From an uncultured Candidatus Saccharibacteria bacterium (GTDB lineage Bacteria; Patescibacteriota; Minisyncoccia; Phycocordibacterales; EsbW-18), in contig CAYZIR010000002.1 of NCBI GenBank assembly GCA_964478705.1, positions 23,760 to 87,759 of the forward strand: a stretch of DNA of 64,000 bases. The letters run 5' to 3'. The translations under genes and the position numbers were made by a program. Positions 6,309 to 51,399 of the stretch are shown here, piece by piece. Positions within the stretch are counted from its first letter, which is position 1. The number at the start of each line of letters is the position of its first letter. The notes beneath the pieces are model-generated. The model worked only from the letters and a program-made list of their open reading frames with translations, did not search any database and was not told where the DNA came from.

Positions 6309-6403
6309 AGTGAGGGTATGGTATCACGGCGGTATATCATAAAAGATGGGTATTTGAATAAAATCTTTGATAAGAATCAAAAAGAGCGTTACGATGGGAA
6401 CGC

Positions 6404-21094: not shown

Positions 21095-22969
21095 ATGAGC
21101 AAAATCCTTGGAATCGATCTTGGAACAACAAACTCTGCTATGGCGGTGATGCAGGGAGGCGAGCCGACCATCATTGAGAACAGCGAGGGCGCACGAACGA
21201 CCCCGTCAATCGTTGCGGTCAGCAAGACAGGCGACCGTTTGGTTGGTTTGATCGCACGCCGTCAGGCCGTCACGAACCCAAAGAACACCATCTACGGCAT
21301 CAAGCGTTTGATGGGACACAAGTTTGATGAGGATGCGGTTCAGAAGGAGAAAACCGTCGTTCCCTACGAAATCATCCGCGCATCGGACGGTTCTGCTGCG
21401 GTGAAGATGAACGACAAGGAATACCGCCCAGAAGAGGTATCAGCGATGATCTTGGGAAAGCTTAAAGCAGATGCTGAAGCAAAACTTGGTGAGAAAATCA
21501 CCGAGGCGGTCATCACCGTGCCCGCATACTTCAATGACTCACAGCGAAAAGCGACCAAAGATGCTGGAGCGATTGCGGGGTTGGATGTGAAGCGTATCAT
21601 CAACGAACCAACAGCTGCAGCGCTTGCATACGGCTTCAACAAGAAAGCAAACGAGCAAATCGCGGTCTTCGACTTTGGTGGAGGAACATTCGACATTTCA
21701 GTGCTTGAGGTATCTGCAGCAGAAGGCGAGCAGAGTGTTGAAGTGAAGGCAACCGGTGGAGACAGCCACCTCGGAGGGCGTGACATCGACCAGAAGGTGA
21801 TTGAGTGGATCATCACTGAATACAAGAAGGAATCAGGTATCGACGTTTCAAAAGACCCACTCGCACTCCAGCGTTTGGACGAAGCAGCCGAAAAAGCAAA
21901 GATCGAACTCTCAACAGCAACAGAAACCGAAATCAATCTCCCATTCATCACGTCAGACTCGTCAGGTCCTCGTCACTTGGTGATGAAAATCTCTCGCGCA
22001 ACGCTCGAGAATATCGCACGCGAATTCATCGATCGTGCACTTACGATCACGAAGCAAGTTATTGCTGATTCACCATTTGAGATCAAAGATATTGATGAGG
22101 TGGTCTTGGTGGGAGGTCAGACCCGCATGCCAGCGATCCAGCAAGCGGTGAAAGAACTCTTCGGTAAAGAGCCAAACCGCTCAATCAACCCTGACGAAGT
22201 GGTAGCGCTTGGTGCTGCAATCCAGGCCGGCATCCTTCAAGGAGATGTCAAAGACGTGCTTTTGCTCGACGTGACCCCATTGTCGCTCGGTATTGAGACC
22301 TTGGGAGGTGTAGCAACAAAGCTTATCGAGAAGAACACCACCGTTCCTGCAAGCAAATCCCAGACCTTCTCGACTGCATCAGACAACCAGACCTCCGTTG
22401 AAATCCATGTGGTTCAAGGAGAACGCCCAATGGCGGCCGACAACAAAACACTCGGCCAATTTATCCTCGATGGTATTCCACCAGCACCTCGTGGTATGCC
22501 ACAAGTTGAGGTGACTTTTGACTTGGATGCAAACGGCATTCTTACCGTCAAAGCAAAGGATAAATCATCCGGCAAAGAGCAATCTATCCGTATCGAAGGC
22601 AGTGGAACCCTCTCTGAAACCGAAATCAACCGTATGAAAGCGGACGCAGAAGCGCATGCCGCAGAGGATGCAAAGAAGAAAGAGCTTGTGGACACTCGCA
22701 ACATGGCAGACCAGACAATCTTCACGGCAGAAAAAGCACTTAAAGACGCTGAAGGGAAGATCGGGGATGATGTGAAGACGTCAGTTACGGGAGCAATTGA
22801 GGAAGTACGCAAAGTGAAGGATGGAAGCGATATTGATGCGGTGAAGAAGGCGACGGAAGCATTGGTGACTGAGATGCAGAAGATTGGAGCTGCTATGCAG
22901 TCGCAGACCCCTCCGCAGGAAACTCCAAACGATGCAGCGGGAGGGGGTGAAGAAAAGAATGATCAATAA
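21095..22969 (+). CDS. dnaK: molecular chaperone DnaK (Hsp70)
   Basis: [16 protein letters not shown] and other Hsp70 signatures. Confidence 0.95.
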
Positions 22970-23147
22970 TGCGCCTTACCAGATTAACTTGGATAAGTAT
23001 GCCCCATAAGAAAAGCCAGTCTCACATTCAAGTTCGAGGTCCAAAGGGAAAATTTGTAAAAGATACTCCAGCAAATCGAAAAAAGAAGAATAACACCGTG
23101 GAACGAGTCCCTAATCCGGGATATGGAGATACCTAAGAATAACCAAC

Positions 23148-23176
23148 AATTCCGGCTTTATGCCGGAATTTGTGTT
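23148..23176 (+). terminator. rho-independent terminator of dnaK
   Basis: AATTCCGGC-tttat-GCCGGAATT followed by TGTGTT. Confidence 0.65.
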
Positions 23177-23201
23177 ATACAAGTGTCATGAATTCTTAAT
23201 T

Positions 23202-24686
23202 ATGCCTACTAAACGTCACACAATTTCTCTCAGCAAGCATCTGGATTTGACTCGCAAAAAATTGGAAAAGATTGGTGTTTTTGACGCAACCCTCGGTGTT
23301 GATACGAGACTCTTTATAGATCCTAAGCTTCTCATCAGATCTAAAATTCCCGAATTTAAGACGTCACGTTATAAAATACTGAAACATTTTGCCAAGCTGA
23401 TTCGCATTCATAAGCTATCTACTAAATCTTCACAGCTTGGCGAGATTGCGCTTTCAATGCTTGCGGTTCCCGAACCTCAAGGACTTGCGATTGGGTACGG
23501 ACATACGACGGATCGAGGTGTGGCAATTTCTGAATCAATCGCAAGAAAGATACTGTTACAGCTCAGTGAAATGATGTCTGTTGGATTGCAGGATAAAGAG
23601 TTGGTCGAACTAATGGCGCTGTTTGTGAAAGGATTTGCCTCCGACAGCATCAGTGATCTGTCGGCACATATTATTTATGACGATCTGTGTAGATATACAG
23701 AGCGAATAGCTAAAAAATTAAAGGTAGAAACAACACTTTTTGATGTAGGGGATAAAAAATACCAGTTACCTAAGCACCCTTTTAAAAACTCACAGGTAAT
23801 TTTTGTTCCTCACACTCTACTCAGCCCACTTCCTGTAGCTACTTCATGGGAGGAAATAGAAGCTGCTGCTGCACACAATCGAAAACTGAGGAAAACTTTT
23901 AGTGAAATTGTTAAGCCTAGTGTATATGCTGCGATCAAAGATTTGGAACGTCTGAATCCTGAGGAACGTGAGGATTTCAAGAGCGCGATAGAGAAGCTTG
24001 TTGAAGTCTATCAGGGTATTCGGGTATCGACATATAGCCTGCGACAAGATCGAAAGGGGTATTACGGCATCCAACCGTTTGTAGACAAGGAAGAGTCCAA
24101 TTATATTCCGTCTAACCTACCGACAACTGCGGAGGAACTAATCACTTCGGTTCGAGAGATTATCACACAGTACCAAAAATCTATTGAACATAATGCTGGT
24201 AATCGACTGCTCTATCATCGAACAAAATCAGGTTCAATTTTGAAAAATAAACCCCATAACGAAGACGTCGCTCAAAATTTGTTCTTCCAACTCGCTGATC
24301 AATACTGCTCAATGGCCAATATTCTTTTGTCCAGAGAGCCTAATGCGGGTATAGGTGCTGTTGATTTTTCATTAGGAAAAGGTTACGACTCTAAAATCTT
24401 AGTCGAAATCAAAAAATCTACCAACACTGGACTAGAGAGCGGCTACAAAAAACAAATAACGGCTTACGAGAAAAGCGAGTCATCAAAGCACTCTTTTTTT
24501 GTTGTGATTATCGTAAAGGAAGGAAAAAAGAAGAAAAATGAGTACCCCCCACAACTCCAAACGGTTAAAAATCTATACGACTCAAATGTCAGCAAATCTA
24601 TCTCTACTCCAGAATTGTTTATCATTGATGGCCTGATCTATCCCTCTCCCAGTAAGCGTCGTGAGAAAAGCAATACCTTATCTTAA
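23202..24686 (+). CDS. hypothetical protein with a PD-(D/E)xK-like motif near the C-terminus; candidate restriction endonuclease
   Basis: No recognised N-terminal domain; GAVDFSL...ILVEIKK fits D...ExK; AT-rich; first gene of a four-gene operon with an MTase. Confidence 0.4.
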   Translation: MPTKRHTISLSKHLDLTRKKLEKIGVFDATLGVDTRLFIDPKLLIRSKIPEFKTSRYKILKHFAKLIRIHKLSTKSSQLGEIALSMLAVPEPQGLAIGYGHTTDRGVAISESIARKILLQLSEMMSVGLQDKELVELMALFVKGFASDSISDLSAHIIYDDLCRYTERIAKKLKVETTLFDVGDKKYQLPKHPFKNSQVIFVPHTLLSPLPVATSWEEIEAAAAHNRKLRKTFSEIVKPSVYAAIKDLERLNPEEREDFKSAIEKLVEVYQGIRVSTYSLRQDRKGYYGIQPFVDKEESNYIPSNLPTTAEELITSVREIITQYQKSIEHNAGNRLLYHRTKSGSILKNKPHNEDVAQNLFFQLADQYCSMANILLSREPNAGIGAVDFSLGKGYDSKILVEIKKSTNTGLESGYKKQITAYEKSESSKHSFFVVIIVKEGKKKKNEYPPQLQTVKNLYDSNVSKSISTPELFIIDGLIYPSPSKRREKSNTLS

Positions 24687-24719
24687 TTTTATGGCCCTGT
24701 AGTAGGGTTGGGTTCAAAT

Positions 24720-25580
24720 ATGACCCCAGAACTGCTATATTTAAGGCCTCCCATGGCCACAAAAACGCAAACAAAGAAGGTGTTAGAGTCTGTTGGCCAG
24801 AAGCCGTATTTTCATGGTGATGATTTTGCCCTCTACCACGGCGATTCAATCGAACTCCTTTCAAAACTTCCTGAAAATTCAATCGACATGATTTTTGCCG
24901 ATCCTCCGTACAATCTCTCGAACGGAGGTTTTAGTGTTCATGCTGGACGCATGGTGAGTGTCAACAAGGGTGACTGGGACAGAAGTAAGGGTTTTCAAAA
25001 CGACTATGAATTTCATGTCCGCTGGCTCGAAGCCGTTCGTAAAGTACTAAAACCAGGAGGAACATTGTGGGTGAGTGGAACATATCACTCAATTTATCAA
25101 TGTGGCCATGCCATTCAATCGCTCGGATACCACATTTTGAATGATGTTTCGTGGTTTAAGCCAAACGCTTCGCCAAACTTAAGCTGCCGCTTCTTCACTG
25201 CAAGCCACGAAACATTAATTTGGGCACGCAAAGACAAGAAGGCAAAACACACCTTCAATTACGATAAAATGAAGAATGGTGATTGGGGTAGTGATTTCAT
25301 TAAAAAACCAGGGCTACAAATGCGCTCTGTCTGGTCTGTAGGAACACCAAAGCCGGACGAAAAGAAATTTGGTAAGCACCCGACACAAAAACCACTTGAA
25401 CTTTTGCGCCGTATTGTCCTGGCAAGTACCAAAAAAGGGGATATTGTTCTTGATCCATTCACCGGTAGTTCAACCACAGGTATCGCTGCTGCAAAAGAGG
25501 GTAGGAAGTTTATTGGTATTGATATGGAAAAGAACTACCTTGATCTTTCCGTTAAAAGGTTTAATTCTATTAAAATATGA
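24720..25580 (+). CDS. beta-class N6-adenine/N4-cytosine DNA methyltransferase
   Basis: Motif IV DPPY lies before motif I (DPFTGSSTTGIAA), i.e. beta-class permutation; the ORF track starts it at TTG 24708 but the first ATG is 24720. Confidence 0.85.
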   Translation: MTPELLYLRPPMATKTQTKKVLESVGQKPYFHGDDFALYHGDSIELLSKLPENSIDMIFADPPYNLSNGGFSVHAGRMVSVNKGDWDRSKGFQNDYEFHVRWLEAVRKVLKPGGTLWVSGTYHSIYQCGHAIQSLGYHILNDVSWFKPNASPNLSCRFFTASHETLIWARKDKKAKHTFNYDKMKNGDWGSDFIKKPGLQMRSVWSVGTPKPDEKKFGKHPTQKPLELLRRIVLASTKKGDIVLDPFTGSSTTGIAAAKEGRKFIGIDMEKNYLDLSVKRFNSIKI

Positions 25581-26098
25581 AAGAAGGTGGCTTTGGGGGA
25601 GGAAACACCATAACCGGATTAAACTTTGAAAAGGAGACGGATATCCTTTCTCTTTTGGCAACAAAAGCCGGATACGAAGTCAAAGACAACGTTATTTTCT
25701 ATGAAGGAAAGGAGGTTGCAAGAAACTATCGAAAAAATGGACTTTACAAGTTTCTCGAATCAAAAGGTGTCGACTATAAGAAAATTCTTTCCAAGAAACT
25801 CCTACCGGACGATGCACTTTATGTGATTTTAAACAACACTCTTTTTGTCATCGAAGTAAAGTTCCAAAAGGTTGCAGGTTCGGTTGACGAAAAGCTTCAA
25901 ACCTGCGATTACAAACGGAAACAGTACGCAAAATTGATGGCGCCTCTTAATATCGAGGTTGAGTATATTTATATTTTGAGCGACTGGTTTCGTGCAGAGT
26001 CTTATAAAGACACTTTAGATTACATAATCTCTGTTGGTTGTCAGTATTACTTCAAATATCTTCCTCTGCAAAAATTAGGATTGCCAGTACCGAACTAA
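25577..26098 (+). CDS. small PD-ExK-like protein, putative restriction endonuclease or partner subunit
   Basis: ATGA overlap with the MTase stop (translational coupling); DD...LFVIEVKFQK fits a D-x12-ExK core. Confidence 0.35.
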   Translation: MKEGGFGGGNTITGLNFEKETDILSLLATKAGYEVKDNVIFYEGKEVARNYRKNGLYKFLESKGVDYKKILSKKLLPDDALYVILNNTLFVIEVKFQKVAGSVDEKLQTCDYKRKQYAKLMAPLNIEVEYIYILSDWFRAESYKDTLDYIISVGCQYYFKYLPLQKLGLPVPN

Positions 26099-26106
26099 TC
26101 AAAAAA

Positions 26107-27789
26107 ATGCCTACAATAAATAATTCGACCAAGAAGACTCTTTCGAGTGTATTTGATAAGACTATTTTTAATATTCCTAGATACCAACGAGCTTACTCTT
26201 GGGAGGAAAGCAATTGGCGCGAATTGTGGGACGATATTAAAAATAATGTTCTAGAAAAAGACAAGGAGCATTTTCTTGGAGCAATAATTTATTATCATGG
26301 AGATTCCGGTGGCTCTCGATACACACATTATGAGGTCATTGACGGACAACAACGCATTACCACGCTCACAATCTTAATGCGTGTTCTATATGAAAAACTG
26401 AGAGAAAACAACGTTGAAGTCTATCAGAGATTTGCTGATGAACTCTATGAAAAATATATTGGTGATATAGAAAATGAAACTTTCTTCCTTAATTTAAGTA
26501 AAAAAGATCAAGTTTTCTTTAGAGAGTTTATCCAAAAGAGCGTTCCAATTAGAAAACAGGGGAAGTTAATTTCCAACAAAAGCATAAGAAAGTGTTATGA
26601 ATTTTTTGTAAAGAAAATCGATGACATTTCAAAAGAGAGCGGCATAAAAGAAATTGAAGAATTCTGTTGGGAATTAAAAAAGAAGCTCGAAACTAATTTG
26701 GTTTTTGTCGTCATTGATGTGAATACTGATGTAGATGCATATATGATTTTTGAAAGCATCAATTCCAAAAGACAAGGACTAACAACATCCGATCTTCTTA
26801 AAAACTATATATTTTCGGCTGCTGATCAATACGAAAAGATAAAGCCTGAATCAAAAAAATTATCAATTACAGAAGACGCATGGGACAGGATGGAACAAGA
26901 GCTAGACAGAATTGAAATAAACCAATATGTTCGACACTTTTGGATATCAAACTACGGAAAGGTTTTTGAGAAAGAACTTTATCAACAAATAAAACTCAAA
27001 TTCAATAATAATAACGAGGCGATATTAAACTTCTTTGAGAACGTCGTAACCGAGTCAGAGGCTTATTCGAGCATATTTAATGCAAACATTTCCAACTTTC
27101 CACAAGATGGTCTTCATGCGCTAGAACAACTACGTCAACTAAAAAATAGACAATACTACCCTTTAATACTATCTGCTTTGTCTGGGTGGCCTTCTCAGGA
27201 AGTTTCCGATCTCATAAAACAAATAGCTTCAGTGGCAGTTAGAAGAGCGCTTATTGGCAAAAACCCAAATGAACTAGAGAATTTCTTTGCTGAAAGCGCT
27301 TCAAAACTTAGAACCAAGAATGTTACCCCCCAAGATCTCATAACGATCCTTGCTACAGACTTCTGGATTGAAGACAGCGAGATCTTGGAAGAAATTAAAG
27401 ATACAGATTTCGAAGACCAGGAATACCTTGCAAAGTTCTTACTTAAGGAATTTGAAACAAGCAGTAATCCTGCCAATGAGAAAAGTCTTGGCAAGGTATC
27501 ACTTGAACATATTTTACCTAGAAATCCTGAGAGAGTTGAGGATTGGGATATGAAAGAAGATAGACAGACCGAGCTTGTTTGGAATATTGGCAATCTTGCC
27601 TTAATTGGTCAGACTTACAATAATAAGATGTCTAATAAATCTTTTTTAAAAAAGAAACCTTGGTTTAAGAAAACAGAAATTAAAACAACAGTTATTTTGG
27701 CAGAACACGAACAGTGGACAGAGAAGGAGATCTTAGAAAGAAACGCTCAGGTTGGAAAGTTTTTGATAAGATGGTGGGCAAAAAGTTAA
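26107..27789 (+). CDS. GmrSD-family type IV (modification-dependent) restriction enzyme-like protein (DUF262 + DUF1524)
   Basis: N-terminal DUF262 hallmarks (PRYQRAYSW, DGQQRITT); C-terminal His-Me/HNH-like block (SLEHILP...NIGNLALIG..YNN). Confidence 0.8.
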   Translation: MPTINNSTKKTLSSVFDKTIFNIPRYQRAYSWEESNWRELWDDIKNNVLEKDKEHFLGAIIYYHGDSGGSRYTHYEVIDGQQRITTLTILMRVLYEKLRENNVEVYQRFADELYEKYIGDIENETFFLNLSKKDQVFFREFIQKSVPIRKQGKLISNKSIRKCYEFFVKKIDDISKESGIKEIEEFCWELKKKLETNLVFVVIDVNTDVDAYMIFESINSKRQGLTTSDLLKNYIFSAADQYEKIKPESKKLSITEDAWDRMEQELDRIEINQYVRHFWISNYGKVFEKELYQQIKLKFNNNNEAILNFFENVVTESEAYSSIFNANISNFPQDGLHALEQLRQLKNRQYYPLILSALSGWPSQEVSDLIKQIASVAVRRALIGKNPNELENFFAESASKLRTKNVTPQDLITILATDFWIEDSEILEEIKDTDFEDQEYLAKFLLKEFETSSNPANEKSLGKVSLEHILPRNPERVEDWDMKEDRQTELVWNIGNLALIGQTYNNKMSNKSFLKKKPWFKKTEIKTTVILAEHEQWTEKEILERNAQVGKFLIRWWAKS

Positions 27790-27830
27790 AATAGGACAGA
27801 CACCTTTTTGAAAAATGGTAGAATGGGTGA

Positions 27831-28472
27831 ATGTACATCACCAAAATCGGCCATTGTTGCCTCCGTATCAAGGTTAACGGAGTAACATTCCTCACCGACC
27901 CGGGAGCGTATTCAGAAGGACAGGGGAGTGTCACGGGTATTGATATCATCCTTATCACCCACGAACATGGGGATCACCTCCACATCGAGTCGCTGAAAGA
28001 GGTGTTGAAGAACAATCCGACCGCAGACGTGATTACAAATGCAGGCGTCGGAGCTAAGCTTGGTGAAGCGGGGATTCCGTACACGATTTTGCAGGGAAGA
28101 GACTCATCCGAATCTCGAGGAATCATGCTCGAAGCATTCGATGCGAAGCACGAAGAGATCTTTGAGGACTTCGGTCAGGTGCAAAACACCGGCTATTTCA
28201 TTGCAGAGAAATTCTTTTATCCCGGCGACGCATTCAAAGACCCTGAACGCCCCGTCGATATCCTCGCGCTCCCCGTTGCAGGACCATGGTGCAAAATTGC
28301 TGATGCGGTTCACTATGCCCTGAGAGTGAAGCCTCGTGTCGCATTCCCGGTCCATGATGCAGGTGTCATTGAAGAGCGCCTCGGCAGTGCTCATGGCGCT
28401 CCCGCGCATTTCCTCCCAAAGCACGGCATTGAATTTGTCACTCTCAAAGAAGGTGATTCACACGAATTTTAG
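27831..28472 (+). CDS. MBL-fold metallo-hydrolase
   Basis: HEHGDH motif. Confidence 0.8.
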   Translation: MYITKIGHCCLRIKVNGVTFLTDPGAYSEGQGSVTGIDIILITHEHGDHLHIESLKEVLKNNPTADVITNAGVGAKLGEAGIPYTILQGRDSSESRGIMLEAFDAKHEEIFEDFGQVQNTGYFIAEKFFYPGDAFKDPERPVDILALPVAGPWCKIADAVHYALRVKPRVAFPVHDAGVIEERLGSAHGAPAHFLPKHGIEFVTLKEGDSHEF

Positions 28473-28487
28473 ACAGAATTTCTATAC

Positions 28488-29135
28488 ATGATCAAAGCAG
28501 TTATATTTGATATGGACGGGGTGATTTCTGACACGCAGAAACTCCATGCAAAAGTGGAATCTCGCATCCTTGCAGAGTTCGGCATAGTGCTTTCCCCCGA
28601 AGAAATTACGATGAGATATGCGGGCGTGAGAACACGCGAGTTCTTGTCTGACCTTTTGAATAAACAAGGAGCGGCCTACGACATTGAAGCTTTGCTCAAA
28701 GAGAAATGGGCTGCAATGGAGAAAGCAGCACAAGAAGAGGTTGAAGAAATTCCAGGCTCTGTCGCACTCATCACCGACTTACGGGAGAGGGGTATACCAC
28801 TCGCTGTTGCTTCCGCATCAAATCTTGAATATGTTCGCACCGTTCTTCAAAAACTCGGAGTATTTGAAAACTTTCAAGCGGTTGTGACAGGAGACATGGT
28901 ACAGAAAGGGAAGCCCGATCCTGAAAGCTTTCTTCTCGCTGCCGAGAAGTTAGGTGTCGCTCCTGAAGATTGTCTCGTGATAGAGGACGGAATCAGCGGA
29001 ATGGAAGCAGCAAAAAGAGCATCTATGTGTTGTATTGGATTGGTTGAAAACCTCAACAAAGAATACCCAACAAAAAACCTTGTTACCTCCATGAAAGATA
29101 TTTCACTCTCTTATATCCAAAGTCTCTCTACATAA
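28488..29135 (+). CDS. HAD-IA family hydrolase (beta-phosphoglucomutase-like)
   Basis: FDMDGVISDT motif I; C-terminal motifs K...EDGxSG. Confidence 0.8.
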   Translation: MIKAVIFDMDGVISDTQKLHAKVESRILAEFGIVLSPEEITMRYAGVRTREFLSDLLNKQGAAYDIEALLKEKWAAMEKAAQEEVEEIPGSVALITDLRERGIPLAVASASNLEYVRTVLQKLGVFENFQAVVTGDMVQKGKPDPESFLLAAEKLGVAPEDCLVIEDGISGMEAAKRASMCCIGLVENLNKEYPTKNLVTSMKDISLSYIQSLST

Positions 29136-29169: not shown

Positions 29170-29224
29170 TTGGCAGTACGAATGCAAGAGTGCATTCATG
29201 CTCTTTCCCAAACGGAGGTTCACA

Positions 29225-29509
29225 ATGACCACGAAGACCGAAGTGCCCGTCGCGATGATCACCCCCGCCACCGAAGGAAAGTGGAAGCTCGAAGGGTACG
29301 ACACCTTCGAAGGTGGTCCGGACGCGTACTATCCCATCGAGGGTGAGTACGATTCGCAGGCGGAGGCAGAAGCTGCCGCCAGCAAGCAACTTCAGAATCT
29401 TGAGAAGTCCCAGCCGAGCAGTTCCTCGGGTGGTCAGACCTTCCAAGGGATCCAAGATCGAATCTATACCGTGTCGCCGGACGGTACCCGTCGCCGTTTC
29501 ATCGGCTGA
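29225..29509 (+). CDS. hypothetical acidic protein
   Basis: Strong GGAGG SD; start trimmed from ORF 29198. Confidence 0.5.
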   Translation: MTTKTEVPVAMITPATEGKWKLEGYDTFEGGPDAYYPIEGEYDSQAEAEAAASKQLQNLEKSQPSSSSGGQTFQGIQDRIYTVSPDGTRRRFIG

Positions 29510-29543
29510 TCTTCCAGATCACAGACAAACCAAGGAGGAAGCC

Positions 29544-29870
29544 ATGTACGACGGATTCTATTGCCTTGTGAAGCATCAGGTCGCGGTGACGCCTCAGCTT
29601 CTCCGAAAGCTTCTCGAAAAAGCGCAAGTGATGGCGAGAACTCGGGAGAGCAGAAGCCACTTTCTCACTGAGGATGCCACCGGCGTCGTGACGACAGTCT
29701 ATCAGCACAACGTGATGGGCTCGATCGCCGGCATCCGCTTCGACGCCGAAGTGGAGAGCGATCTTGGCAAGGGTCACGTCGCTTTCCTCGTCGAGGAGAA
29801 TCATCTCGACGAAACAGACATGAGCACCTTGCGCTTCTTCAGGGTTCCCCAGGGAGCCTGGGTTCGCTAG
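29544..29870 (+). CDS. hypothetical protein
   Basis: AGGAGG SD 6 nt upstream; start trimmed from ORF 29313. Confidence 0.5.
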   Translation: MYDGFYCLVKHQVAVTPQLLRKLLEKAQVMARTRESRSHFLTEDATGVVTTVYQHNVMGSIAGIRFDAEVESDLGKGHVAFLVEENHLDETDMSTLRFFRVPQGAWVR

Positions 29871-29894
29871 ACTTATCCAACGGTTCATCACCGC

Positions 29895-29937
29895 ACCACC
29901 CGCGGAGGCCACGCCTTCTTGGGTGGTCTTTTTGTTT
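29895..29937 (+). terminator. rho-independent terminator
   Basis: ACCACCC...GGGTGGT stem followed by CTTTTTGTTT. Confidence 0.6.
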
Positions 29938-29957
29938 AGTTCAATATGCAGAGGAGC

Positions 29958-30227
29958 TTATTCTAAGTTTCTGCAGAAACCGAGAACCCTTGCACCGGTG
30001 TCGGTGAGGAGATGTTCAAGGGCAAGTCCGTTTCTCCGTTTTGTAATCAAACCAGCCAACGCAAGCTTCCGTAGGTGCTCAGATATCGTTCTGAAATCAC
30101 CTCGGAGTGTGTCGGCGATGTCGAGTCCTGATAGTTTTGGCCGGCGTTCAAGCACGAGCAATATGTTGAGTCGATGAATATTTGCACACCCCTTAAAAAT
30201 TCGTTCCAATTCTTTTTGGTTTTTCAT
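29958..30227 (-). CDS. ArsR/SmtB-family HTH transcriptional regulator
   Basis: 89-aa winged helix (NIHRLNILLVL...LSGLDIADTL...ISEHLRKL); TATACT -10 directly before the ATG, so leaderless. Confidence 0.75.
   Translation of the reverse strand: MKNQKELERIFKGCANIHRLNILLVLERRPKLSGLDIADTLRGDFRTISEHLRKLALAGLITKRRNGLALEHLLTDTGARVLGFCRNLE
29967..29980. promoter_or_regulatory. palindromic operator candidate copy 1, inside the 3' end of the arsR-like CDS
   Basis: Perfect 14-bp palindrome GTTTCTGCAGAAAC. Confidence 0.45.
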
Positions 30228-30246
30228 ACTAGTATAAATCTGCCTT

Positions 30247-30268
30247 CTTAGTTTCTGCAGAAGCTAAG
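30247..30268. promoter_or_regulatory. palindromic operator candidate copy 2, in the divergent promoter region
   Basis: 22-bp near-perfect palindrome CTTAGTTTCTGCAGAAGCTAAG. Confidence 0.55.
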
Positions 30269-30290
30269 AATACTCATTTGGGATAAAGGG

Positions 30291-30842
30291 GTGGTAAAAT
30301 GCGAGTCTATGAAAAAACCGACGCGTCAAAAACGAACAAAGATGGTTGTCGTCAACGACTCTATGCAAAAGGGCTATCGGTATGAGCTCGTAGAACCAAT
30401 CGGTAAAAATTTTGATCCCACATTCAAACCAGATCTGACGCCTAAAGAAATACTCAAGCTCGGCATCTTCGGCGGGCTTCACCTGAACGATTGCACAAAA
30501 GAGTTTCCGAAGAGCTGGTTTGCTGGCGTGCAGTTTTCAAGCACAGGAAAACACGAAGCGAAGCTAAACTATTTTGGTGTAAACGCGTCGCAATCATTGG
30601 CTGAATGGAAACGTAAGGGCTGGGTTTATAAAGATGACCCGCGAGGGTGGTTTCAGTGGTACTGTCGCTACTACATGGGTCGCCGTATCCCGAAAGAAGA
30701 CGCGCGACAAATCAAACGCTGGAAGGCAATCACTCGTCATATTGCCCAAATCAAACACAACTGCAGAGCGGGGGATATCATGTGTCGCCCCGTCCAACGC
30801 CAAGCGCTCCTCCACTGGGCATACGATTCACGAAAATTTTAA
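30291..30842 (+). CDS. hypothetical protein with a conserved W/Y/R-rich C-terminal block
   Basis: GTG start; GWFQWYCRYYMGRR...IKRWKAITRH block of unknown family. Confidence 0.45.
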   Translation: MVKCESMKKPTRQKRTKMVVVNDSMQKGYRYELVEPIGKNFDPTFKPDLTPKEILKLGIFGGLHLNDCTKEFPKSWFAGVQFSSTGKHEAKLNYFGVNASQSLAEWKRKGWVYKDDPRGWFQWYCRYYMGRRIPKEDARQIKRWKAITRHIAQIKHNCRAGDIMCRPVQRQALLHWAYDSRKF

Positions 30843-30855
30843 ACTTCTTAAGCAT

Positions 30856-30895
30856 TTGCACATTCTCAAGTTCTTAAGAACTTGAGAATGTGCAA
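30856..30895. repeat. 40-bp perfect palindrome
   Basis: ttgcacattctcaagttcttaagaacttgagaatgtgcaa; all 20 base pairs verified by hand. Confidence 0.9.
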
Positions 30896-30951
30896 GTGTG
30901 CTGTGAGAGGTTGGGCGGGTTTTCTGAGCTCTATTCAAGCCTATTTCTATT

Positions 30952-30973
30952 CTCTATTTCTGCAGAAACAGAG
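30952..30973. promoter_or_regulatory. palindromic operator candidate copy 3, upstream of gene 31081
   Basis: CTCTATTTCTGCAGAAACAGAG, with a perfect 12-bp core. Confidence 0.5.
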
Positions 30974-31080
30974 AAGCCTCTTTTGTTAATTCGCACCATT
31001 TCACATTCTTGTCTTTTTAAGTCCGAGGCGTATACTCGCGGGAGATTGAACCAACCGATAGACGGGAAAGGAGATGACTC

Positions 31081-31626
31081 ATGAAAGCGATCGTTGGATA
31101 CGATAGGGATTTTGGTGTGCAGTTCTTCCGTCGAACGTTCGCAGAACTAACATCACAAGGTATCGATCTGTGGAAAGCGATTACAGAGGAAGAGCGAGAA
31201 TACATCGCTCAAAGGCTCGGTGACACGCTGGTTTTGCATCCATATTCTAAACTAGGGTCACCCTGGATTTCAGACGATTTTAAGAAGCTTTTCAAAGATG
31301 GGAAGTACTGCGTCGATCGGGTGACACACGACCGTGCTGAACTCATGGCAAATCAAATTCTGATCTACCAAGGCATCGTCTCCCTGGGAGGAATCTGGAA
31401 ATTCAGAGATGGTCGTTCGACCGGTACGACTCGTGCTTTCTACGAAGACGTTGCGGCAAAGCTCTTTCGTATCGCTGCTCGGTGGCCTTATCTGAACTCC
31501 GACGAACGGAGGGTTCTGAATGAGGTGGGAGAACACACGAGCTTGTGGATTGATATCTTGGCTCAGGTGATGGGGAATGACTATCTCGAAGAACTCGGGA
31601 CAGGCAGTCCAATCGTTCTCGCCTGA
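31081..31626 (+). CDS. hypothetical protein
   Basis: AGGAG SD 8 nt upstream; terminator downstream. Confidence 0.55.
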   Translation: MKAIVGYDRDFGVQFFRRTFAELTSQGIDLWKAITEEEREYIAQRLGDTLVLHPYSKLGSPWISDDFKKLFKDGKYCVDRVTHDRAELMANQILIYQGIVSLGGIWKFRDGRSTGTTRAFYEDVAAKLFRIAARWPYLNSDERRVLNEVGEHTSLWIDILAQVMGNDYLEELGTGSPIVLA

Positions 31627-31639
31627 TAGCAGTTCATAC

Positions 31640-31670
31640 TGGCTCCGCGCATATACCCGCGCGGGGTTTT
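31640..31670 (+). terminator. rho-independent terminator
   Basis: CCGCGC-atataccc-GCGCGG followed by GGTTTTCTTATT. Confidence 0.55.
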
Positions 31671-31689
31671 CTTATTATCTACAACCTTT

Positions 31690-31724
31690 AAAAACAAAAC
31701 GGGTCCGCACAAACGTGCGAACCC
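31690..31724 (-). terminator. rho-independent terminator for minus-strand gene 31750..32283
   Basis: GGGTTCGCAC-gttt-GTGCGGACCC followed by GTTTTGTTTTT on the minus strand. Confidence 0.6.
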
Positions 31725-31749
31725 TGTGAAAACGATGGGGAAGAACAGA

Positions 31750-32283
31750 TCAGGCAGTGCGACCACGACAGATGTTGATCGTGTGCCGAACGTCACTCGC
31801 GTCGTACTCGTTGAATCTCTCTCCGGGGTCCTCTCCATCCTTGTAATGGATAGAAGAGATGCGTTTCGCGAATCGCTCGAGCGCCGGAACGTGTCGCTCG
31901 CTACCGATCTTCTCCATGATCTCGAGGATCAGAGCACGGTACGAACGATCCTCTCCTTCGAAGAACTCATCCCACTCGAGGATGCTCGCGATGCGGTCGG
32001 CATCTTCTTTGCCTACCGCTTCCTCGATAGCGACTAGCAGATGCAAGAAACCGTCGTCGGGTGTCTTCAGAATCAACACACCATTTTCACGCTCGTGTTC
32101 GATGAGCGAGAGAATCGCATCGATCGCACCGGGGAACTTGTTCGCCCTCAAGTGCATCGCGAGCCACTCACTCCTAGCAAGCTTGGCGCAGTAGTTGGAA
32201 AAACCGGGGCGACCCTGGATCACGTCGCACAAGACCACCCTAGCGGTCTCCAGGATCTCTTCCTTGCTCATCACTACTGGCAT
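31750..32283 (-). CDS. hypothetical protein
   Basis: AGGAG SD 7 nt upstream on the minus strand. Confidence 0.55.
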   Translation of the reverse strand: MPVVMSKEEILETARVVLCDVIQGRPGFSNYCAKLARSEWLAMHLRANKFPGAIDAILSLIEHERENGVLILKTPDDGFLHLLVAIEEAVGKEDADRIASILEWDEFFEGEDRSYRALILEIMEKIGSERHVPALERFAKRISSIHYKDGEDPGERFNEYDASDVRHTINICRGRTA

Positions 32284-32385
32284 GCTGTTCTCCTCTGGTT
32301 TGATGGTTGCCTAGGATATACTCTGAAGACAGAGTACCTTATTTACTGTGATATGTCAAATCGCACAATGAGAATAACAATTTAT

Positions 32386-32416
32386 ATCAAAAAAGACTCT
32401 GCGCGTGGCAGAGTCT
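32386..32416 (-). terminator. rho-independent terminator for minus-strand gene 32430..32747
   Basis: AGACTCTGC-cacgc-GCAGAGTCT followed by TTTTTTGAT on the minus strand. Confidence 0.6.
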
Positions 32417-32429
32417 CGTGGGTTTGTGT

Positions 32430-32747
32430 CTAGGGCGACGGACAGTTCTTTTCGAAGCAGATCGGCACTCCACTGTTTCGGAGTGCCCGAGCAATCGCGA
32501 CCATCGTCTCTTGGTGGCGATTGCACACCGCCGTGATGGTTTGTACGGAACCGGGCGAGCGAATCTCCATCCGCACGCCGGTCTTGATTTCACCGGTGAC
32601 CGCAAAAGCGAGCTTCACCTTCCGCTCGGGACACCGGCCGTTGACCTGTCTGATTGCGCCGGGCTTGATGCTAGCGACCCCCGGCACCTGTGCAGTGAGT
32701 TCTGCAACGTTCCTCGCGAATTCGGTTGTTTGGGAGTGCGCCCCCAT
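32430..32747 (-). CDS. hypothetical protein
   Basis: GGAGGA SD 4 nt upstream on the minus strand. Confidence 0.5.
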   Translation of the reverse strand: MGAHSQTTEFARNVAELTAQVPGVASIKPGAIRQVNGRCPERKVKLAFAVTGEIKTGVRMEIRSPGSVQTITAVCNRHQETMVAIARALRNSGVPICFEKNCPSP

Positions 32748-32879
32748 TAATCCTCCGGAGTAGTGGTGCGTCCGGAGCGATTATTACAGCCATGTCGATA
32801 TTTGTCAATCGTTCGCGATGAGTTGCTGTTTTATATGAAAATCCCGCCGTTGGCAAAAAAGCCTGGGCGGGAAGATGTC

Positions 32880-33254
32880 TCAGAGAACGATATCTTCGAG
32901 GAACTTGTCCGTCGTTCGAAGAAGGAGCTCGATATGATCCTTGCTCGCGAAAATCTGGTTTTCACCCTGGATTAGCCCAAAAATGTCGCACTTCAACTGA
33001 TCGAGAAGATGCGCGACGATTGCTTGAGCCAGCGGTGTTAGCCTGTACTTCTCGTACGAACCAACCTTGTGGACATCTCTCTCAGAGAAGAGTCGAGAAC
33101 TCCCATCTTGAGATCTTCCGTCGACGAGCACGGCTAGCTTCTCCCGCAACTGCCTCACGAATTCTGGGCAGAAACCATTGATGACTACGGAAGAAGTTCG
33201 CAGAGACGGGAGAGCCGGCGTGGGCACTGTGGCAGGCTTTCTTTTTTGCATCAC
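32880..33254 (-). CDS. hypothetical protein
   Basis: AGGAGA SD upstream on the minus strand; weak resemblance to wHTH proteins. Confidence 0.4.
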   Translation of the reverse strand: MMQKRKPATVPTPALPSLRTSSVVINGFCPEFVRQLREKLAVLVDGRSQDGSSRLFSERDVHKVGSYEKYRLTPLAQAIVAHLLDQLKCDIFGLIQGENQIFASKDHIELLLRTTDKFLEDIVL

Positions 33255-33376
33255 TTTCTCCTATCGGTTATTACTCCACGAAGAAAGTACTGTATATTTT
33301 ATATGAAGTCAATACACTCACGCTGATGCACCATAGGTCATTGAAATTTCATAAAAAACTGTCATAATAGTCGCCT

Positions 33377-34468
33377 ATGGCAAAGGACTACTACTCCATT
33401 CTCGGCGTTTCAAAGAGTGCTTCAAAAGACGACATCAAAAAAGCATTTCGAACACTCGCGCACAAATACCATCCCGATAAAAAAGGTGGGGATGAAGCAA
33501 AATTTAAGGAAATCAACGAGGCGTACGGTGTTCTTTCCGATGATTCAAAACGTAAACAGTACGATTCATTCGGCAGTGCTGGACCTGGCATGGGTGGTGC
33601 AGGGTTTGACCCGCGTGGGTTCGGTGGCTTCGCGAATGGCCAAGGGTTTGATTTTTCTGGGTTCGCCGGAGCCGAAAACGGTTTTTCATTCGATCTCGGT
33701 GATATTTTCGGTGATATTTTCGGCGGTCGTGGAGGTGGTCGGGTTCGCCGTGGGCGGGACATCTCGATAGACATCGAACTCGACTTTAAAGATTCTATCT
33801 TTGGTACTACGCGGAATGTTTTGGTAAAGAAAGCAAATCTCTGTGGCACGTGTAAGGGTTCGGGTGGCGAGCCGGGAAGCCAGATGAAAAAATGTGAGAC
33901 GTGCAATGGTCAAGGTAAAATTTCTGAAACACGTTCTTCGTTGTTCGGTAACTTTTCGACCACCACCACGTGCGCTACGTGTAACGGTCGCGGAGAAACC
34001 CCACTAACACAGTGTTCAACATGTAAAGGTGCCGGCATTGTGAAAGAAGAAAAAGATATTCGTATTGCAATTCCTGCAGGCATCGAAAACGGTGAAATGA
34101 TTCGTTTGACGGGAGCTGGTGAAGCGATTCAGCACGGTTCTGCGGGCGACCTCTATGTAAAAATTCACGTAAAGGCGCACAAGATTTTCGAAAAAGAGGG
34201 ATTTGATTTGGTCACCTACCTCCCCATAAAAATTTCTGAAGCGGTGCTGGGAACAACGAAAAAACTTGAAACACTTGAAGGCGTCGAAGAAATTGTTATT
34301 CCGTCGGGTTCAAAAGATGGTCATGAAATAAGAATCCGCGGAAAAGGTGTACCCGCAAGTGGTGGGAAGCGGGGGAATCTCCGTGTTGTACTCGAGTTGG
34401 AAATCCCTCAAAAGCTCTCGAAGAGCGAACGCGAGTTGTTTGAAAAGCTTAAGGAACAGGGGATGTAG
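33377..34468 (+). CDS. dnaJ: chaperone DnaJ
   Basis: J-domain HPD, G/F-rich region, four CxxCxGxG zinc-finger repeats; TGTCATAAT -10 element 8 nt upstream. Confidence 0.9.
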
Positions 34469-51030: not shown

Positions 51031-51051
51031 GAAGAAAGAAAATCACGAATC

Positions 51052-51396
51052 ATGAAGCACGAATCATGTAACATGGAACATACAACGCGGAATACGGAAC
51101 ACGGAACATATACCATAGAACAGGCTACACGTTTTGCGCTTCATAACCGAAGGGGATTCATTAAAATTATTTTACTCATCGTCATCGGTCTCGTGGTGCT
51201 TGGATACTTTGGTTTGAACATCAAAGACATCCTCGCGTCACCCGTCGTCAAAGAGAATCTTGCCTATGCATGGGAACTTGCAAAGACACTCTGGGCGAAT
51301 TACCTCCAGGCACCCGCACAGTGGGTATGGGAACACCTTATTAAGTTCCTCTGGAACCTCTTTTTGGAAGGCTTAGGAAATCTGAAGTCGAATTAG
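51052..51396 (+). CDS. hypothetical membrane protein
   Basis: One TM helix; the 5' end sits in a short tandem-repeat tract, so the true start is uncertain. Confidence 0.35.
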   Translation: MKHESCNMEHTTRNTEHGTYTIEQATRFALHNRRGFIKIILLIVIGLVVLGYFGLNIKDILASPVVKENLAYAWELAKTLWANYLQAPAQWVWEHLIKFLWNLFLEGLGNLKSN

Positions 51397-51399
51397 TTT

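What the first reader, a model, noticed from the sequence alone, without database searches (positions are those of the whole stretch)
23148..27800. AT-rich four-gene defence-like island inserted directly behind the dnaK terminator
From 23.2 to 27.8 kb the base composition turns clearly AT-rich, and four tightly packed co-directional genes appear. They are an orphan 494-aa protein, a beta-class DPPY methyltransferase, a 173-aa protein whose ATG overlaps the MTase stop (ATGA), and a GmrSD-like DUF262/DUF1524 protein. A conventional restriction-modification (R-M) module sitting next to a modification-dependent (type IV) nuclease, wedged between the conserved dnaK and housekeeping genes, looks like a horizontally acquired defence island. 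Two of the four proteins have no confident family assignment.
Basis: partly seen in the sequence, partly recalled or inferred. Interest (0 to 1): 0.75.

Follow-up and report, generated by a model that had tools for sequence, protein, structure and literature searches.

The report
Three-module defence island behind dnaK
An AT-rich 4.8-kb cassette swapped in between dnaK and a hydrolase gene of a Paceibacteria (CPR) genome carries three separate anti-phage modules: a lone nuclease, a probably GATC-specific methylase with a small nuclease partner, and a GmrSD-type enzyme. It is an ordinary kind of defence island, but its two nucleases belong to large, unstudied families.

Summary
Window 22969-27789 is the GC minimum of the 64 kb (0.385 vs 0.469 +/- 0.022) and carries four tightly packed + strand genes. 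A close relative (DnaK 97%, GrpE 96%, HAD 89% identical) keeps both flanks but holds unrelated cargo, so this is a variable cassette site.

The genes form three independent modules.
- ORF1 (494 aa) is not an orphan. It belongs to DUF8370/DUF8371, with a BamHI-fold PD-(D/E)XK nuclease C-domain and an N-domain without a structural match. It has no conserved partner in 80 other genomes. It is embedded in type I R-M operons and defence islands, so it is a candidate single-gene defence nuclease.
- The methylase is closest to the second (DpnA/LlaDCHIB-type) methylases of DpnII-type GATC cassettes (52.7%), ahead of CcrM.
- Its 173-aa partner is a PD..ExK nuclease of a very large CPR family. That family is almost always next to GATC-type methylases. 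It sometimes replaces and sometimes accompanies a DpnII-type enzyme.
- GATC is the most depleted tetranucleotide in the host backbone.
- ORF4 is a full-length HEC-06-like GmrSD.

Verdict: a real but ordinary defence island, a new member of a known kind. The role of the 173-aa nuclease is the one open question.

The parts
22908..22969 (+). Left boundary of the exchangeable segment, covering the last ~60 nt of dnaK and its stop codon
   Evidence: blastn homology to relatives L180, L181/L182 and L183 ends at window 22900-22908. The DnaK C-terminal tails differ.
22969..23136 (+). 55-codon ORF whose ATG overlaps the dnaK stop (TAATG). AT-rich (GC 0.41). Unverified as a gene.
   Evidence: Called as a gene on the identical public contig. 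Sequence read. No tblastn match in relatives. No PHROG hit.
23148..23170 (.). 9-bp-stem GC-rich hairpin followed by a T-rich tail (terminator-like). It lies inside the AT-rich segment, upstream of ORF1.
   Evidence: Terminator scan. Sequence.
23202..24686 (+). ORF1, 494 aa, family DUF8370/DUF8371. It has a conserved N-terminal domain without a structural match, plus a C-terminal PD-(D/E)XK nuclease with a BamHI-like fold. Interpreted as a stand-alone candidate defence nuclease.
24255..24419 (+). ORF1 nuclease motif: E354/Q358 (helix), D388 (VDFSLG), E402-x-K404 (VEIKKS)
   Evidence: Invariant in 28 sequences sharing as little as 28% identity. Coordinates.
24753..25580 (+). Beta-class N6-adenine DNA methyltransferase, 275 aa, with DPPY at residues 50-53. 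DpnA/LlaDCHIB-like; predicted m6A at GATC.
   Evidence: PF01555 at 6.6e-59. Best annotated homologues are the second methylases of DpnII-type cassettes: pSRQ700 52.7% and Staphylococcus plasmids 50.8%. CcrM 6pbd at 7.6e-63. The NCBIfam CcrM equivalog scores 251 bits against a cut-off of 830.
25577..26098 (+). ORF3, 173 aa: a small PD..ExK nuclease (PDDEXK_11-like) translationally coupled to the methylase through an ATGA overlap. Predicted restriction partner.
   Evidence: Homologues. Invariant P77 D78 E93 S102 E105 K113. PF20472 hit in 46 of 48 members. Conserved adjacency to methylases. Catalytic motif coordinates 25802-25894.
26107..27789 (+). GmrSD-like, HEC-06-type type IV restriction enzyme, 560 aa. 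DUF262 domain with DGQQR (26341-26355) and DUF1524 domain with EHILP (27505-27519).
   Evidence: GmrSD_N at 4.4e-38 and GmrSD_C at 2.1e-21. PADLOC HEC-06 at 3.6e-107, full length. PDB hits to a DUF262 protein and SspE. Motifs. HEC-06 mutagenesis in 10.1101/2024.01.29.577857.
27831..28472 (+). MBL-fold hydrolase gene. GC is normal (0.516), but it lies inside the segment that is replaced in the close relative.
   Evidence: No MBL match in L181/L182. Homology resumes at 28488, the HAD start codon. GC.
28488..29135 (+). HAD hydrolase gene: the right conserved flank
   Evidence: 89% aa and 81% nt identity to L181/L182, starting exactly at 28488.

Best explanation
The segment is a horizontally exchanged defence cassette sitting at a variable site between dnaK and a HAD-hydrolase gene of a Paceibacteria (CPR) genome. 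It stacks three independent immune modules that may be read as one + strand unit. No mobility genes are present. The most likely exchange mechanism is replacement by homologous recombination in the conserved flanks (inferred).

MODULE A: ORF1. A stand-alone two-domain nuclease. The conserved N-terminal domain presumably senses or selects the target. The C-terminal BamHI-fold PD-(D/E)XK domain cuts DNA. It has no cognate methylase, so it must spare self DNA in one of two ways: by recognising a foreign feature (type IV-like) or by staying latent until infection. This mechanism is inferred.

MODULE B: METHYLASE PLUS ORF3. A two-gene type II restriction-modification unit derived from the DpnII-type GATC family.
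- The DpnA/LlaDCHIB-like beta-class methylase makes m6A, most likely at GATC.
- The translationally coupled 173-aa PD..ExK protein cuts the unmethylated site.
- The specificity and the restriction role are inferred from relatives and context, not shown.

MODULE C: ORF4. A HEC-06-type GmrSD enzyme. Its DUF262 domain is an NTPase and its DUF1524 domain is an HNH-type nuclease. It attacks modified phage DNA that escapes module B.
For: ISLAND.
- The segment is the GC minimum of the window.
- In L181/L182 the flanks are conserved and the cargo is unrelated. L183 carries yet another cargo.
- No tRNA, integrase, flanking repeats or Rfam match were found.
- GATC observed/expected is 0.99 inside the island but 0.59 in the backbone.

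MODULE A (ORF1).
- E354, D388, E402 and K404 are invariant.
- None of 80 homologous loci has the methylase, ORF3 or GmrSD nearby, and no neighbour is conserved.
- The homologue is embedded in an HsdR-HsdM-[homologue]-HsdS operon in L006 and L008, and follows HsdR-HsdS in L033.
- Other neighbours include an SLFN-helicase/S24 protein with a MazG-like protein, HEPN/RES, and PLD-ResIII-DUF3427.
- On a Rhodobacter plasmid it sits in a SIR2/DUF3427/GIY-YIG island. On a Nitrosospira plasmid it sits among integrase and toxin-antitoxin genes.
- The N-domain is related to the PADLOC candidate PDC-M36A in 27 of 28 members.

MODULE B (methylase plus ORF3).
- The methylase-ORF3 pair recurs with a 1-nt gap or a 4-nt overlap in three unrelated CPR contexts and in N. 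gonorrhoeae.
- ORF3 homologues of 80% identity sit between a DpnM-like D12 methylase (2dpm 1e-67) and a second methylase.
- In L214 the homologue occupies the dpnB slot of a DpnM-like/DpnA-like/ORF3 operon.
- One family member is fused to a D12 methylase.
- The methylase is closest to LlaDCHIB on pSRQ700. That system is a DpnII isoschizomer at GATC (PMC4190342).
- GATC is the most depleted of all 256 tetramers (z = -7.3).

MODULE C (ORF4).
-.
- HEC-06 is experimentally protective. Its DGQQR and EH motifs are essential.
Against: - No activity has been shown for any of the four proteins.
- ORF3 also occurs in the same operon as an intact DpnII-type endonuclease (L210/211, L213, L212, L219/220). 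It may therefore be an accessory nuclease rather than the restriction enzyme.
- ORF3 is more conserved than its methylase (85-87% vs 75-78% aa at 73% nt identity), which is unusual for a restriction enzyme.
- Its AF2 model was poor (pLDDT 58), and no solved structure matches by sequence.
- The best solved homologue of the methylase is CcrM, which methylates GANTC. GATC is therefore an inference.
- The window has no Dam-like first methylase.
- The defence role of ORF1 rests on context only. A 66%-identical homologue sits in a ribosomal protein operon.
- The mechanism of island transfer is not shown.
Confidence: 0.7

Rival explanations
1. ORF3 is not the restriction enzyme. It is an accessory nuclease that reads GATC methylation. 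Two candidate roles are a MutH-like nickase acting on hemimethylated sites and a DpnD-like factor. Under this reading the methylase plus ORF3 form a maintenance module rather than an immune one.
For: - It co-occurs in one operon with an intact DpnII-type endonuclease in several cassettes, and always with its catalytic motif intact.
- Conservation is exceptional: the top 120 hits are at least 79% identical, there are more than 6,000 clusters, and ORF3 is more conserved than the methylase.
- The gonococcal copy lies in the dam/drg locus.
Against: - It is the only nuclease in most cassettes, including the slot of dpnB.
- One member is fused to a methylase.
- The module moves between unrelated contexts and sits in an AT-rich island beside other defence genes.
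- GATC is depleted in the backbone, as expected under restriction.
- There is no sequence similarity to MutH in the PDB profile searches.
Confidence: 0.2
2. The methylase is a CcrM/HinfI-type GANTC enzyme. It would be either regulatory or part of a GANTC R-M pair, not a GATC enzyme.
For: - CcrM is the best solved homologue (7.6e-63), and similarity runs through the target-recognition region.
- The NCBIfam CcrM model is the best hit (1.5e-74).
Against: - The score of 251 bits is far below the CcrM cut-off of 830, and the CcrM C-terminal domain is missing.
- DpnII-cassette second methylases are closer (52.7% and 50.8% vs 42-44% for alphaproteobacterial CcrM).
- Nearly identical ORF3 partners pair with DpnM-like methylases.
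- GANTC is not depleted (O/E 0.92), whereas GATC is (0.61).
Confidence: 0.12
3. ORF1 is the restriction endonuclease of the adjacent methylase, in an R-M-X arrangement. ORF3 would then be something else.
For: - ORF1 lies directly upstream of the methylase on the same strand.
- Its C-domain has a type II restriction-enzyme fold.
Against: - None of 80 ORF1 homologues in other genomes has this methylase nearby.
- The methylase-ORF3 pair occurs without ORF1 everywhere else.
- A 66-nt gap separates ORF1 from the methylase, whereas the methylase and ORF3 overlap.
Confidence: 0.04
4. ORF1 is a selfish, homing-type endonuclease gene. It would insert next to conserved housekeeping genes rather than act as an immune gene.
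For: - Copies lie directly after dnaK here, and between the L5 and S8 genes in the ribosomal spc operon of another CPR genome.
- Distribution is patchy across phyla.
- The family is present on viral contigs and in a PHROG family.
Against: - It is embedded co-directionally in type I R-M operons and in multi-system defence islands.
- No intron or intein context was seen.
- No repeated target sequence lies at the borders.
- The conserved 330-aa N-domain is shared with a PADLOC defence candidate.
Confidence: 0.08
5. The AT-rich stretch is native. The low GC would reflect weak expression or relaxed constraint rather than acquisition.
For: No integrase, att repeats or tRNA were found.
Against: - The cargo is replaced in a relative with 97% identical DnaK, while the flanks are kept.
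- Each module is found in unrelated contexts elsewhere.
- The GATC statistics of the island differ from those of the backbone.
Confidence: 0.03

Closest known systems
DpnII / LlaDCHI (pSRQ700) / MboI-type GATC restriction-modification cassettes (dpnM-dpnA-dpnB)
   Same: - The window's methylase is 52.7% identical to the second methylase of the pSRQ700 cassette and 50.8% identical to staphylococcal equivalents.
- Relatives of ORF3 sit in cassettes with DpnM-like (2dpm 1e-67) and DpnA-like methylases, sometimes exactly in the dpnB position.
- The host backbone is depleted in GATC.
   Different: - The nuclease partner is a 173-aa PDDEXK_11-like protein with no detectable homology to DpnII-type enzymes: hhalign probability 3.4%, and the Pfam DpnII model hits 1 of 48 members only weakly.
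- No Dam-like first methylase is present in the window.
- The GATC specificity is inferred.
HEC-06 and other GmrSD-like type IV enzymes (GmrSD, BrxU, SspE)
   Same: - Full-length match to the HEC-06 profiles (3.6e-107).
- Both GmrSD Pfam domains are present.
- DGQQR lies at residues 79-83 and EH at 467-468. These are the same motifs whose mutation abolishes HEC-06 defence.
   Different: - It is not embedded in an Hma or BREX system here; it follows an R-M pair.
- The substrate modification is unknown.
- Similarity to SspE and to solved DUF262 proteins is limited to the N-domain.
BamHI/BglII/BstYI/OkrAI branch of PD-(D/E)XK type II restriction endonucleases; PADLOC candidate PDC-M36A
   Same: - The ORF1 N-domain matches the first ~190 positions of PDC-M36A.
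   Different: - Sequence identity is about 11%.
- There is an extra conserved ~330-aa N-domain without a structural match.
- There is no partner methylase.
- The PDC-M36A match is partial (E about 1e-11 to 1e-14), so ORF1 is a relative of that candidate, not a member.
Neisserial leuS-dam/drg (NgoAXI) locus and 'minimal mobile elements'
   Same: - That locus is also a low-GC cassette between conserved housekeeping genes, without mobility genes.
- It contains a homologous methylase (52%) followed, with an ATGA overlap, by an ORF3 homologue (48%) (PMC4269198, PMC6789123).
   Different: - In gonococci both genes are frameshifted.
- The cassette also holds the methyl-GATC-dependent Drg endonuclease, or Dam.
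- The ORF3 homologue is not annotated there.
CcrM (Caulobacter cell-cycle GANTC methylase)
   Same: About 45% identity over the catalytic and target-recognition regions, with the DPPY motif.
   Different: - Lacks the CcrM C-terminal domain.
- Fails the NCBIfam equivalog cut-off (251 vs 830 bits).
- It sits in a mobile cassette with a nuclease rather than being a conserved orphan.

Membership tests
Type II restriction-modification system | DNA methyltransferase with a catalytic (D/N/S)PP(Y/F) motif and a SAM-binding motif | tested here: met
   PF01555 at 6.6e-59. DPPY at residues 50-53 and FTGSSTTG at 236-243.
Type II restriction-modification system | Adjacent nuclease gene with a conserved catalytic motif, whose linkage to the methylase is conserved across genomes | tested here: met
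   P77, D78 and E93 are invariant, and K95 is conserved in at least 90%, of 48 diverse sequences. Adjacency to methylases is seen in CPR, Neisseria and viral contigs.
Type II restriction-modification system | The nuclease cleaves the unmethylated site and is blocked by the partner's methylation | not testable with these tools
   Needs expression and cleavage assays.
DpnII-type GATC cassette | Second methylase of DpnA/LlaDCHIB type | tested here: met
   Best annotated matches are the middle genes of Dam-methylase-REase cassettes on pSRQ700 (52.7%) and Staphylococcus plasmids (50.8%).
DpnII-type GATC cassette | Dam/DpnM-like first methylase in the cassette | tested here: not met
   No D12 methylase anywhere in the window. 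One is present beside ORF3 homologues in L176, L184, L210-L215 and L219.
DpnII-type GATC cassette | Endonuclease of the DpnII/MboI family (PF04556) | tested here: not met
   ORF3 gives no DpnII hit. Only 1 of 48 family members hits weakly (0.0011). hhalign against R.LlaDCHI gives 3.4% probability.
DpnII-type GATC cassette | Recognition sequence GATC | tested here: inconclusive
   Support is indirect only: homology of both methylase types, and GATC O/E of 0.59 in the backbone. CcrM (GANTC) is also a close homologue.
CcrM family (NCBIfam NF050803) | Score above the equivalog cut-off, and the C-terminal DNA-binding domain | tested here: not met
   251 bits against a cut-off of 830. The alignment covers CcrM residues 15-257 only.
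GmrSD-like type IV restriction (HEC-06 type) | N-terminal DUF262 domain with the DGQQR motif | tested here: met
   GmrSD_N at 4.4e-38. DGQQR at residues 79-83.
GmrSD-like type IV restriction (HEC-06 type) | C-terminal DUF1524 domain with the (D/E)H nuclease motif | tested here: met
   GmrSD_C at 2.1e-21. EHILP at residues 467-471. HEC-06 carries EHICP.
GmrSD-like type IV restriction (HEC-06 type) | Full-length similarity to HEC-06 profiles | tested here: met
   PDLC04157 at 3.6e-107, covering residues 28-581 of the protein and positions 7-556 of the 558-position profile.
GmrSD-like type IV restriction (HEC-06 type) | Dependence on modified DNA, and phage protection | not testable with these tools
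   Needs phage assays.
DUF8370/DUF8371 family (ORF1) | Both Pfam domains across the full length | tested here: met
   Precomputed Pfam PF28123 plus PF28130 on the identical protein and on 104 homologues. These models are not in the local Pfam copy.
PD-(D/E)XK nuclease superfamily (ORF1 C-domain) | Core fold with conserved D...(D/E)xK | tested here: met
   [not shown]
PADLOC candidate system PDC-M36 | Full-length match to PDC-M36A, and presence of the partner gene(s) | tested here: not met
   Only profile positions 28-214 of 457 match (E 1.4e-11; best family member 9.4e-14). No conserved partner in 80 loci.
Genomic (defence) island | Deviant composition, and conserved flanks with variable cargo in relatives | tested here: met
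Genomic (defence) island | Mobility hallmarks: integrase or transposase, att repeats, tRNA target | tested here: not met
   No tRNA. No flanking repeats. No recombinase among the genes.

The most novel reading that the evidence does not exclude
The 173-aa ORF3 family may not be simply a redundant restriction enzyme. It could be a distinct, strongly conserved nuclease that reads the GATC methylation state, kept in thousands of CPR genomes. Candidate roles are a MutH-like strand-discriminating nickase or the equivalent of the uncharacterised pneumococcal DpnD. This would explain three observations: it sits beside intact DpnII-type endonucleases in some cassettes, it is more conserved than its methylase, and it is among the most abundant small proteins of this radiation.
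Probability: 0.15. Interest if true: 0.7.

Novelty: new member of a known kind. Interest (0 to 1): 0.42.

Why it matters
- CPR/Patescibacteria largely lack CRISPR and are thought to depend on restriction-type immunity. This locus shows how such genomes stack small immune modules at a cassette site between housekeeping genes without any mobility genes.
- It also points to two large families that nobody has characterised.
- The first is a BamHI-fold stand-alone nuclease (DUF8370/DUF8371) that recurs inside type I R-M operons across many phyla.
- The second is a very conserved 173-aa nuclease tied to GATC methylases.
- If the second one restricts unmethylated GATC, there is a practical consequence. 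DNA prepared in dam+ E. coli should escape a restriction barrier that is widespread in these hard-to-manipulate bacteria.

Tried and rejected
1. ORF3 structure. The AF2 model built from the only alignment allowed (23 sequences, about 83% identical) was poor (pLDDT 58), so it was not used for fold search.
2. ORF3 against solved structures. Profile searches found nothing usable: the best hits were a phage portal protein at 0.033 and NlaIV at 0.19.
3. Synteny through the MBL gene. Its nearest relatives in metagenomes (44-58% identity) have neither dnaK nor HAD nearby, so this was uninformative. Searching with DnaK gave the informative relatives.
4. First guess of GANTC specificity. This came from CcrM similarity. 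It was downgraded after finding the DpnII-cassette homologues and the DpnM-like partners.
5. ORF1 as the cognate restriction enzyme. Rejected on context.
7. Phage GenBank records. No match for ORF1 or ORF3.
8. Mobility signatures (att repeats, tRNA, ncRNA). None found.
9. Names for ORF3 relatives. Only 'hypothetical protein' was returned.
10. DpnD homology. It could not be tested because no sequence was available.

Full report
OBSERVATION

The GC profile falls to 0.33-0.41 between 23 and 28 kb, against 0.45-0.52 on either side. A window of the island's size reaches the minimum for the whole 64 kb here (0.385; mean 0.469, sd 0.022). Four + strand ORFs fill the stretch.

An identical public contig has independent gene calls. 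These fix the likely coordinates:
- ORF1 23202-24686 (494 aa)
- methylase 24753-25580 (275 aa)
- ORF3 25577-26098 (173 aa, ATGA overlap)
- GmrSD 26107-27789 (560 aa)

The gaps are 66, -4 and 8 nt. The hairpin at 23148-23170 is real. However, it follows a 55-codon ORF that starts in the dnaK stop codon. That ORF is already AT-rich (GC 0.41).

IS IT AN INSERTED ISLAND?

DnaK homologues of 97-98% identity exist. One contig ends at dnaK (L180). L181/L182 spans the site. Upstream gene order is the same: S13-S11-S4-RpoA-L17-L13-S9-GrpE-DnaK. Nucleotide homology stops at window 22908 and resumes exactly at 28488, the start of the HAD gene (89% aa identity).

Between these points the relative carries five unrelated genes:
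- a 341-aa unknown
- a LexA/S24-N6_N4 methylase fusion on the other strand
- a DUF2188 protein
- two further unknowns

None of the window's genes is there, and neither is the MBL gene. A more distant relative (L183, DnaK 88%) has yet other small ORFs, then an ArsR-type regulator and dnaJ. In the window dnaJ lies near 33.4 kb.

So the dnaK-HAD interval is a variable cassette site. No tRNA, flanking repeats, RNA family or recombinase is present. Replacement by homologous recombination in the conserved flanks is therefore the most economical mechanism. This is the mechanism proposed for neisserial minimal mobile elements (PMC4269198). It is an inference here.

ORF1

ORF1 is not an orphan. It has more than 100 homologues, most of them from Patescibacteria, and carries Pfam DUF8370 plus DUF8371. 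It matches a PHROG family over its full length (1.7e-72).

Across 28 sequences sharing as little as 28% identity, two sets of residues are invariant:
- E354, Q358, E379, D388, E402, K404 and Q418, which form a PD-(D/E)XK signature
- an N-terminal set: D34, D40, P41, E91, G98, Y99, D148, S151, D152

In 80 loci from many phyla, no locus has the window's methylase, ORF3 or GmrSD adjacent (L015 alone has a short partial methylase match ~3.5 kb away), and no neighbour family recurs in more than 7 loci. What does recur is defence context:
- The gene is embedded co-directionally in HsdR-HsdM-[gene]-HsdS operons (L006, L008) and follows HsdR-HsdS in L033.
- It lies next to an SLFN-type helicase/S24 protein plus a MazG-like protein, next to HEPN/RES proteins, and next to PLD-ResIII-DUF3427.
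- It sits in a SIR2/DUF3427/GIY-YIG island on a Rhodobacter plasmid.
- It sits beside integrase and toxin-antitoxin genes on a small conjugative Nitrosospira plasmid.
- It occurs on 17 IMG/VR contigs.

Its N-domain is distantly related to the PADLOC candidate PDC-M36A (27 of 28 members, best 9.4e-14). A 66%-identical copy sits between the L5 and S8 genes of a ribosomal operon. ORF1 is therefore best read as a stand-alone, mobile, candidate defence nuclease. Its trigger and target are unknown.

THE METHYLASE AND ORF3

The methylase is a beta-class DPPY enzyme. CcrM is its best solved homologue (7.6e-63), but three points argue against CcrM membership:
- It fails the CcrM equivalog cut-off (251 vs 830 bits).
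- It lacks the CcrM C-domain.
- Among annotated plasmids its nearest relatives are the second methylases of three-gene Dam-methylase-endonuclease cassettes: pSRQ700 (52.7%) and staphylococcal plasmids (50.8%). These rank ahead of alphaproteobacterial CcrM (42-44%).

The pSRQ700 system, LlaDCHI, is a DpnII isoschizomer at GATC (PMC4190342). The dpnMAB operon organisation is described in PMC3812788.

ORF3 has more than 6,000 homologous 90%-identity clusters. The top 120 are all 79-89% identical and about 173 aa long. At 50% clustering there are 832 clusters. P77, D78, E93, S102, E105 and K113 are invariant, and K95 and Q97 nearly so. This gives the motif PD..ExK.Q...GSxDEK. 46 of 48 members give sub-threshold hits to PF20472 (PDDEXK_11).

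The methylase-ORF3 pair recurs, with a 1-nt gap or an ATGA overlap, in unrelated places:
- between pyrG and ridA (L082-089)
- between uvrB and a HEPN AbiU2 gene (L172-174)
- in the N. gonorrhoeae leuS-drg (NgoAXI) locus, where both genes are frameshifted

Other cassette arrangements were found:
- ORF3 homologues of 80% identity sit between a D12 methylase and a second methylase (L176, L184-188). That D12 enzyme is DpnM-like (2dpm 1e-67).
- In L214 ORF3 occupies the third slot of a DpnM-like/DpnA-like/ORF3 operon. In L215 the order is M1-ORF3-M2. In L221-223 it is methylase-ORF3.
- One family member is fused to a D12 methylase.

GATC is the most depleted of all 256 tetranucleotides in the window (215 observed vs 352 expected, z = -7.3). 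The observed/expected ratio is 0.59 in the backbone but 0.99 in the island. GANTC is not depleted (0.92).

Together these results favour a GATC-specific type II R-M pair derived from the DpnII family, with an unrelated small nuclease in place of the DpnII-type enzyme. No homology to DpnII-type enzymes is detectable.

WHAT REMAINS ODD ABOUT ORF3

- In L210/211 (M1-ORF3-R), L213 (M1-R-ORF3), L212 and L219/220, ORF3 homologues with intact catalytic motifs lie beside intact DpnII-type endonucleases.
- ORF3 is more conserved than its methylase (85-87% vs 75-78% aa at 73% nt identity).
- A few viral contigs carry it without any methylase, among nucleotide-metabolism genes.

A second, non-homologous isoschizomer would explain the co-occurrence. 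An accessory nuclease that reads GATC methylation is the main rival (about 0.2). Neither can be settled without experiments.

ORF4

ORF4 has both GmrSD Pfam domains. It matches the PADLOC HEC-06 profiles end to end (3.6e-107). It carries DGQQR (residues 79-83) and EHILP (467-471). HEC-06 protects against phage, and mutation of the corresponding Q/R and E/H residues abolishes that protection (10.1101/2024.01.29.577857). ORF4 is a clear member of a known kind. Its substrate modification is unknown.

COMPARISON AND VERDICT

The locus is a small defence island built from three independent modules. Each is found elsewhere on its own in other contexts.
- Modules B and C are members or variants of known systems: a DpnII-derived R-M pair and an HEC-06-type GmrSD enzyme.
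- Module A belongs to a catalogued but uncharacterised family with good contextual support for a defence role.

Elsewhere in CPR genomes the methylase-ORF3 pair is also followed by another small defence-like gene (HEPN AbiU2, an Abi_2-like gene, a NOV_C-like gene). The stacking seen here is therefore typical.

Novelty: a new member of a known kind. Interest is moderate. It rests on the two unstudied nuclease families and on the unresolved role of ORF3.

Noticed in passing
window 22969-23136: A 55-codon ORF starts inside the dnaK stop codon (TAATG). It is AT-rich (GC 0.41) and lysine/arginine-rich. It has no match in the close relatives and no PHROG hit. The terminator-like hairpin follows this ORF, not dnaK.
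   Followed up: partly
L170 461-1927 and L171 740-2206: The closest ORF1 homologue outside this organism (66% identity) lies inside the ribosomal spc operon, between the L5 and S8 genes of another CPR genome.
   Followed up: no
L184 5532-7403 (also L185-L188): A 623-aa protein with no Pfam hit is embedded between the ORF3 homologue and the second methylase of a DpnM-like/ORF3/methylase cassette.
   Followed up: partly
L181 9061-13307 (also L182): At the same dnaK-HAD site, the close relative carries different genes: a 341-aa unknown; a 479-aa fusion of a LexA DNA-binding domain, an S24 peptidase and an N6_N4 methylase, on the opposite strand; a DUF2188 protein; and two further unknowns.
   Followed up: partly
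window 29198-33950: dnaJ lies about 10 kb downstream of dnaK (homology to L183 dnaJ at 33383-33950). The interval 29.2-32.3 kb holds four ORFs without Pfam hits plus an ArsR-type HTH gene, so the variable zone may extend beyond the island.
   Followed up: partly
whole window: Besides GATC, the palindromes GCNGC (100 observed vs 188 expected) and GGNCC (46 vs 85) are depleted. This hints at further restriction pressures in this lineage.
   Followed up: no
L175 3252-4405 (N. gonorrhoeae NZ_CP119140.1, about 10.2-11.5 kb): The gonococcal leuS-drg (NgoAXI) locus holds a frameshifted homologue of the window's methylase. It is followed, with an ATGA overlap, by an unannotated truncated ORF3 homologue (48% identity).
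   Followed up: partly
P0268 (489 aa): A single polypeptide fuses a D12 (Dam-class) methylase to an ORF3-type nuclease domain at residues 321-485.
   Followed up: no
L224-L229 (IMG/VR contigs of 95-120 kb), about 5917-6333: Large viral contigs carry a shorter (138-139 aa) ORF3-like protein without a clearly identified methylase nearby (the next gene in L224 gives only a sub-threshold EcoRI_methylase hit, E 1.8e-4). It lies among dCMP deaminase and serine hydroxymethyltransferase genes.
   Followed up: partly
window 51001-52000: A second low-GC patch (0.41) with small ORFs lacking significant Pfam hits (51052-51396 sub-threshold SNARE only; 51400-51897, 52036-52476 none).
   Followed up: partly
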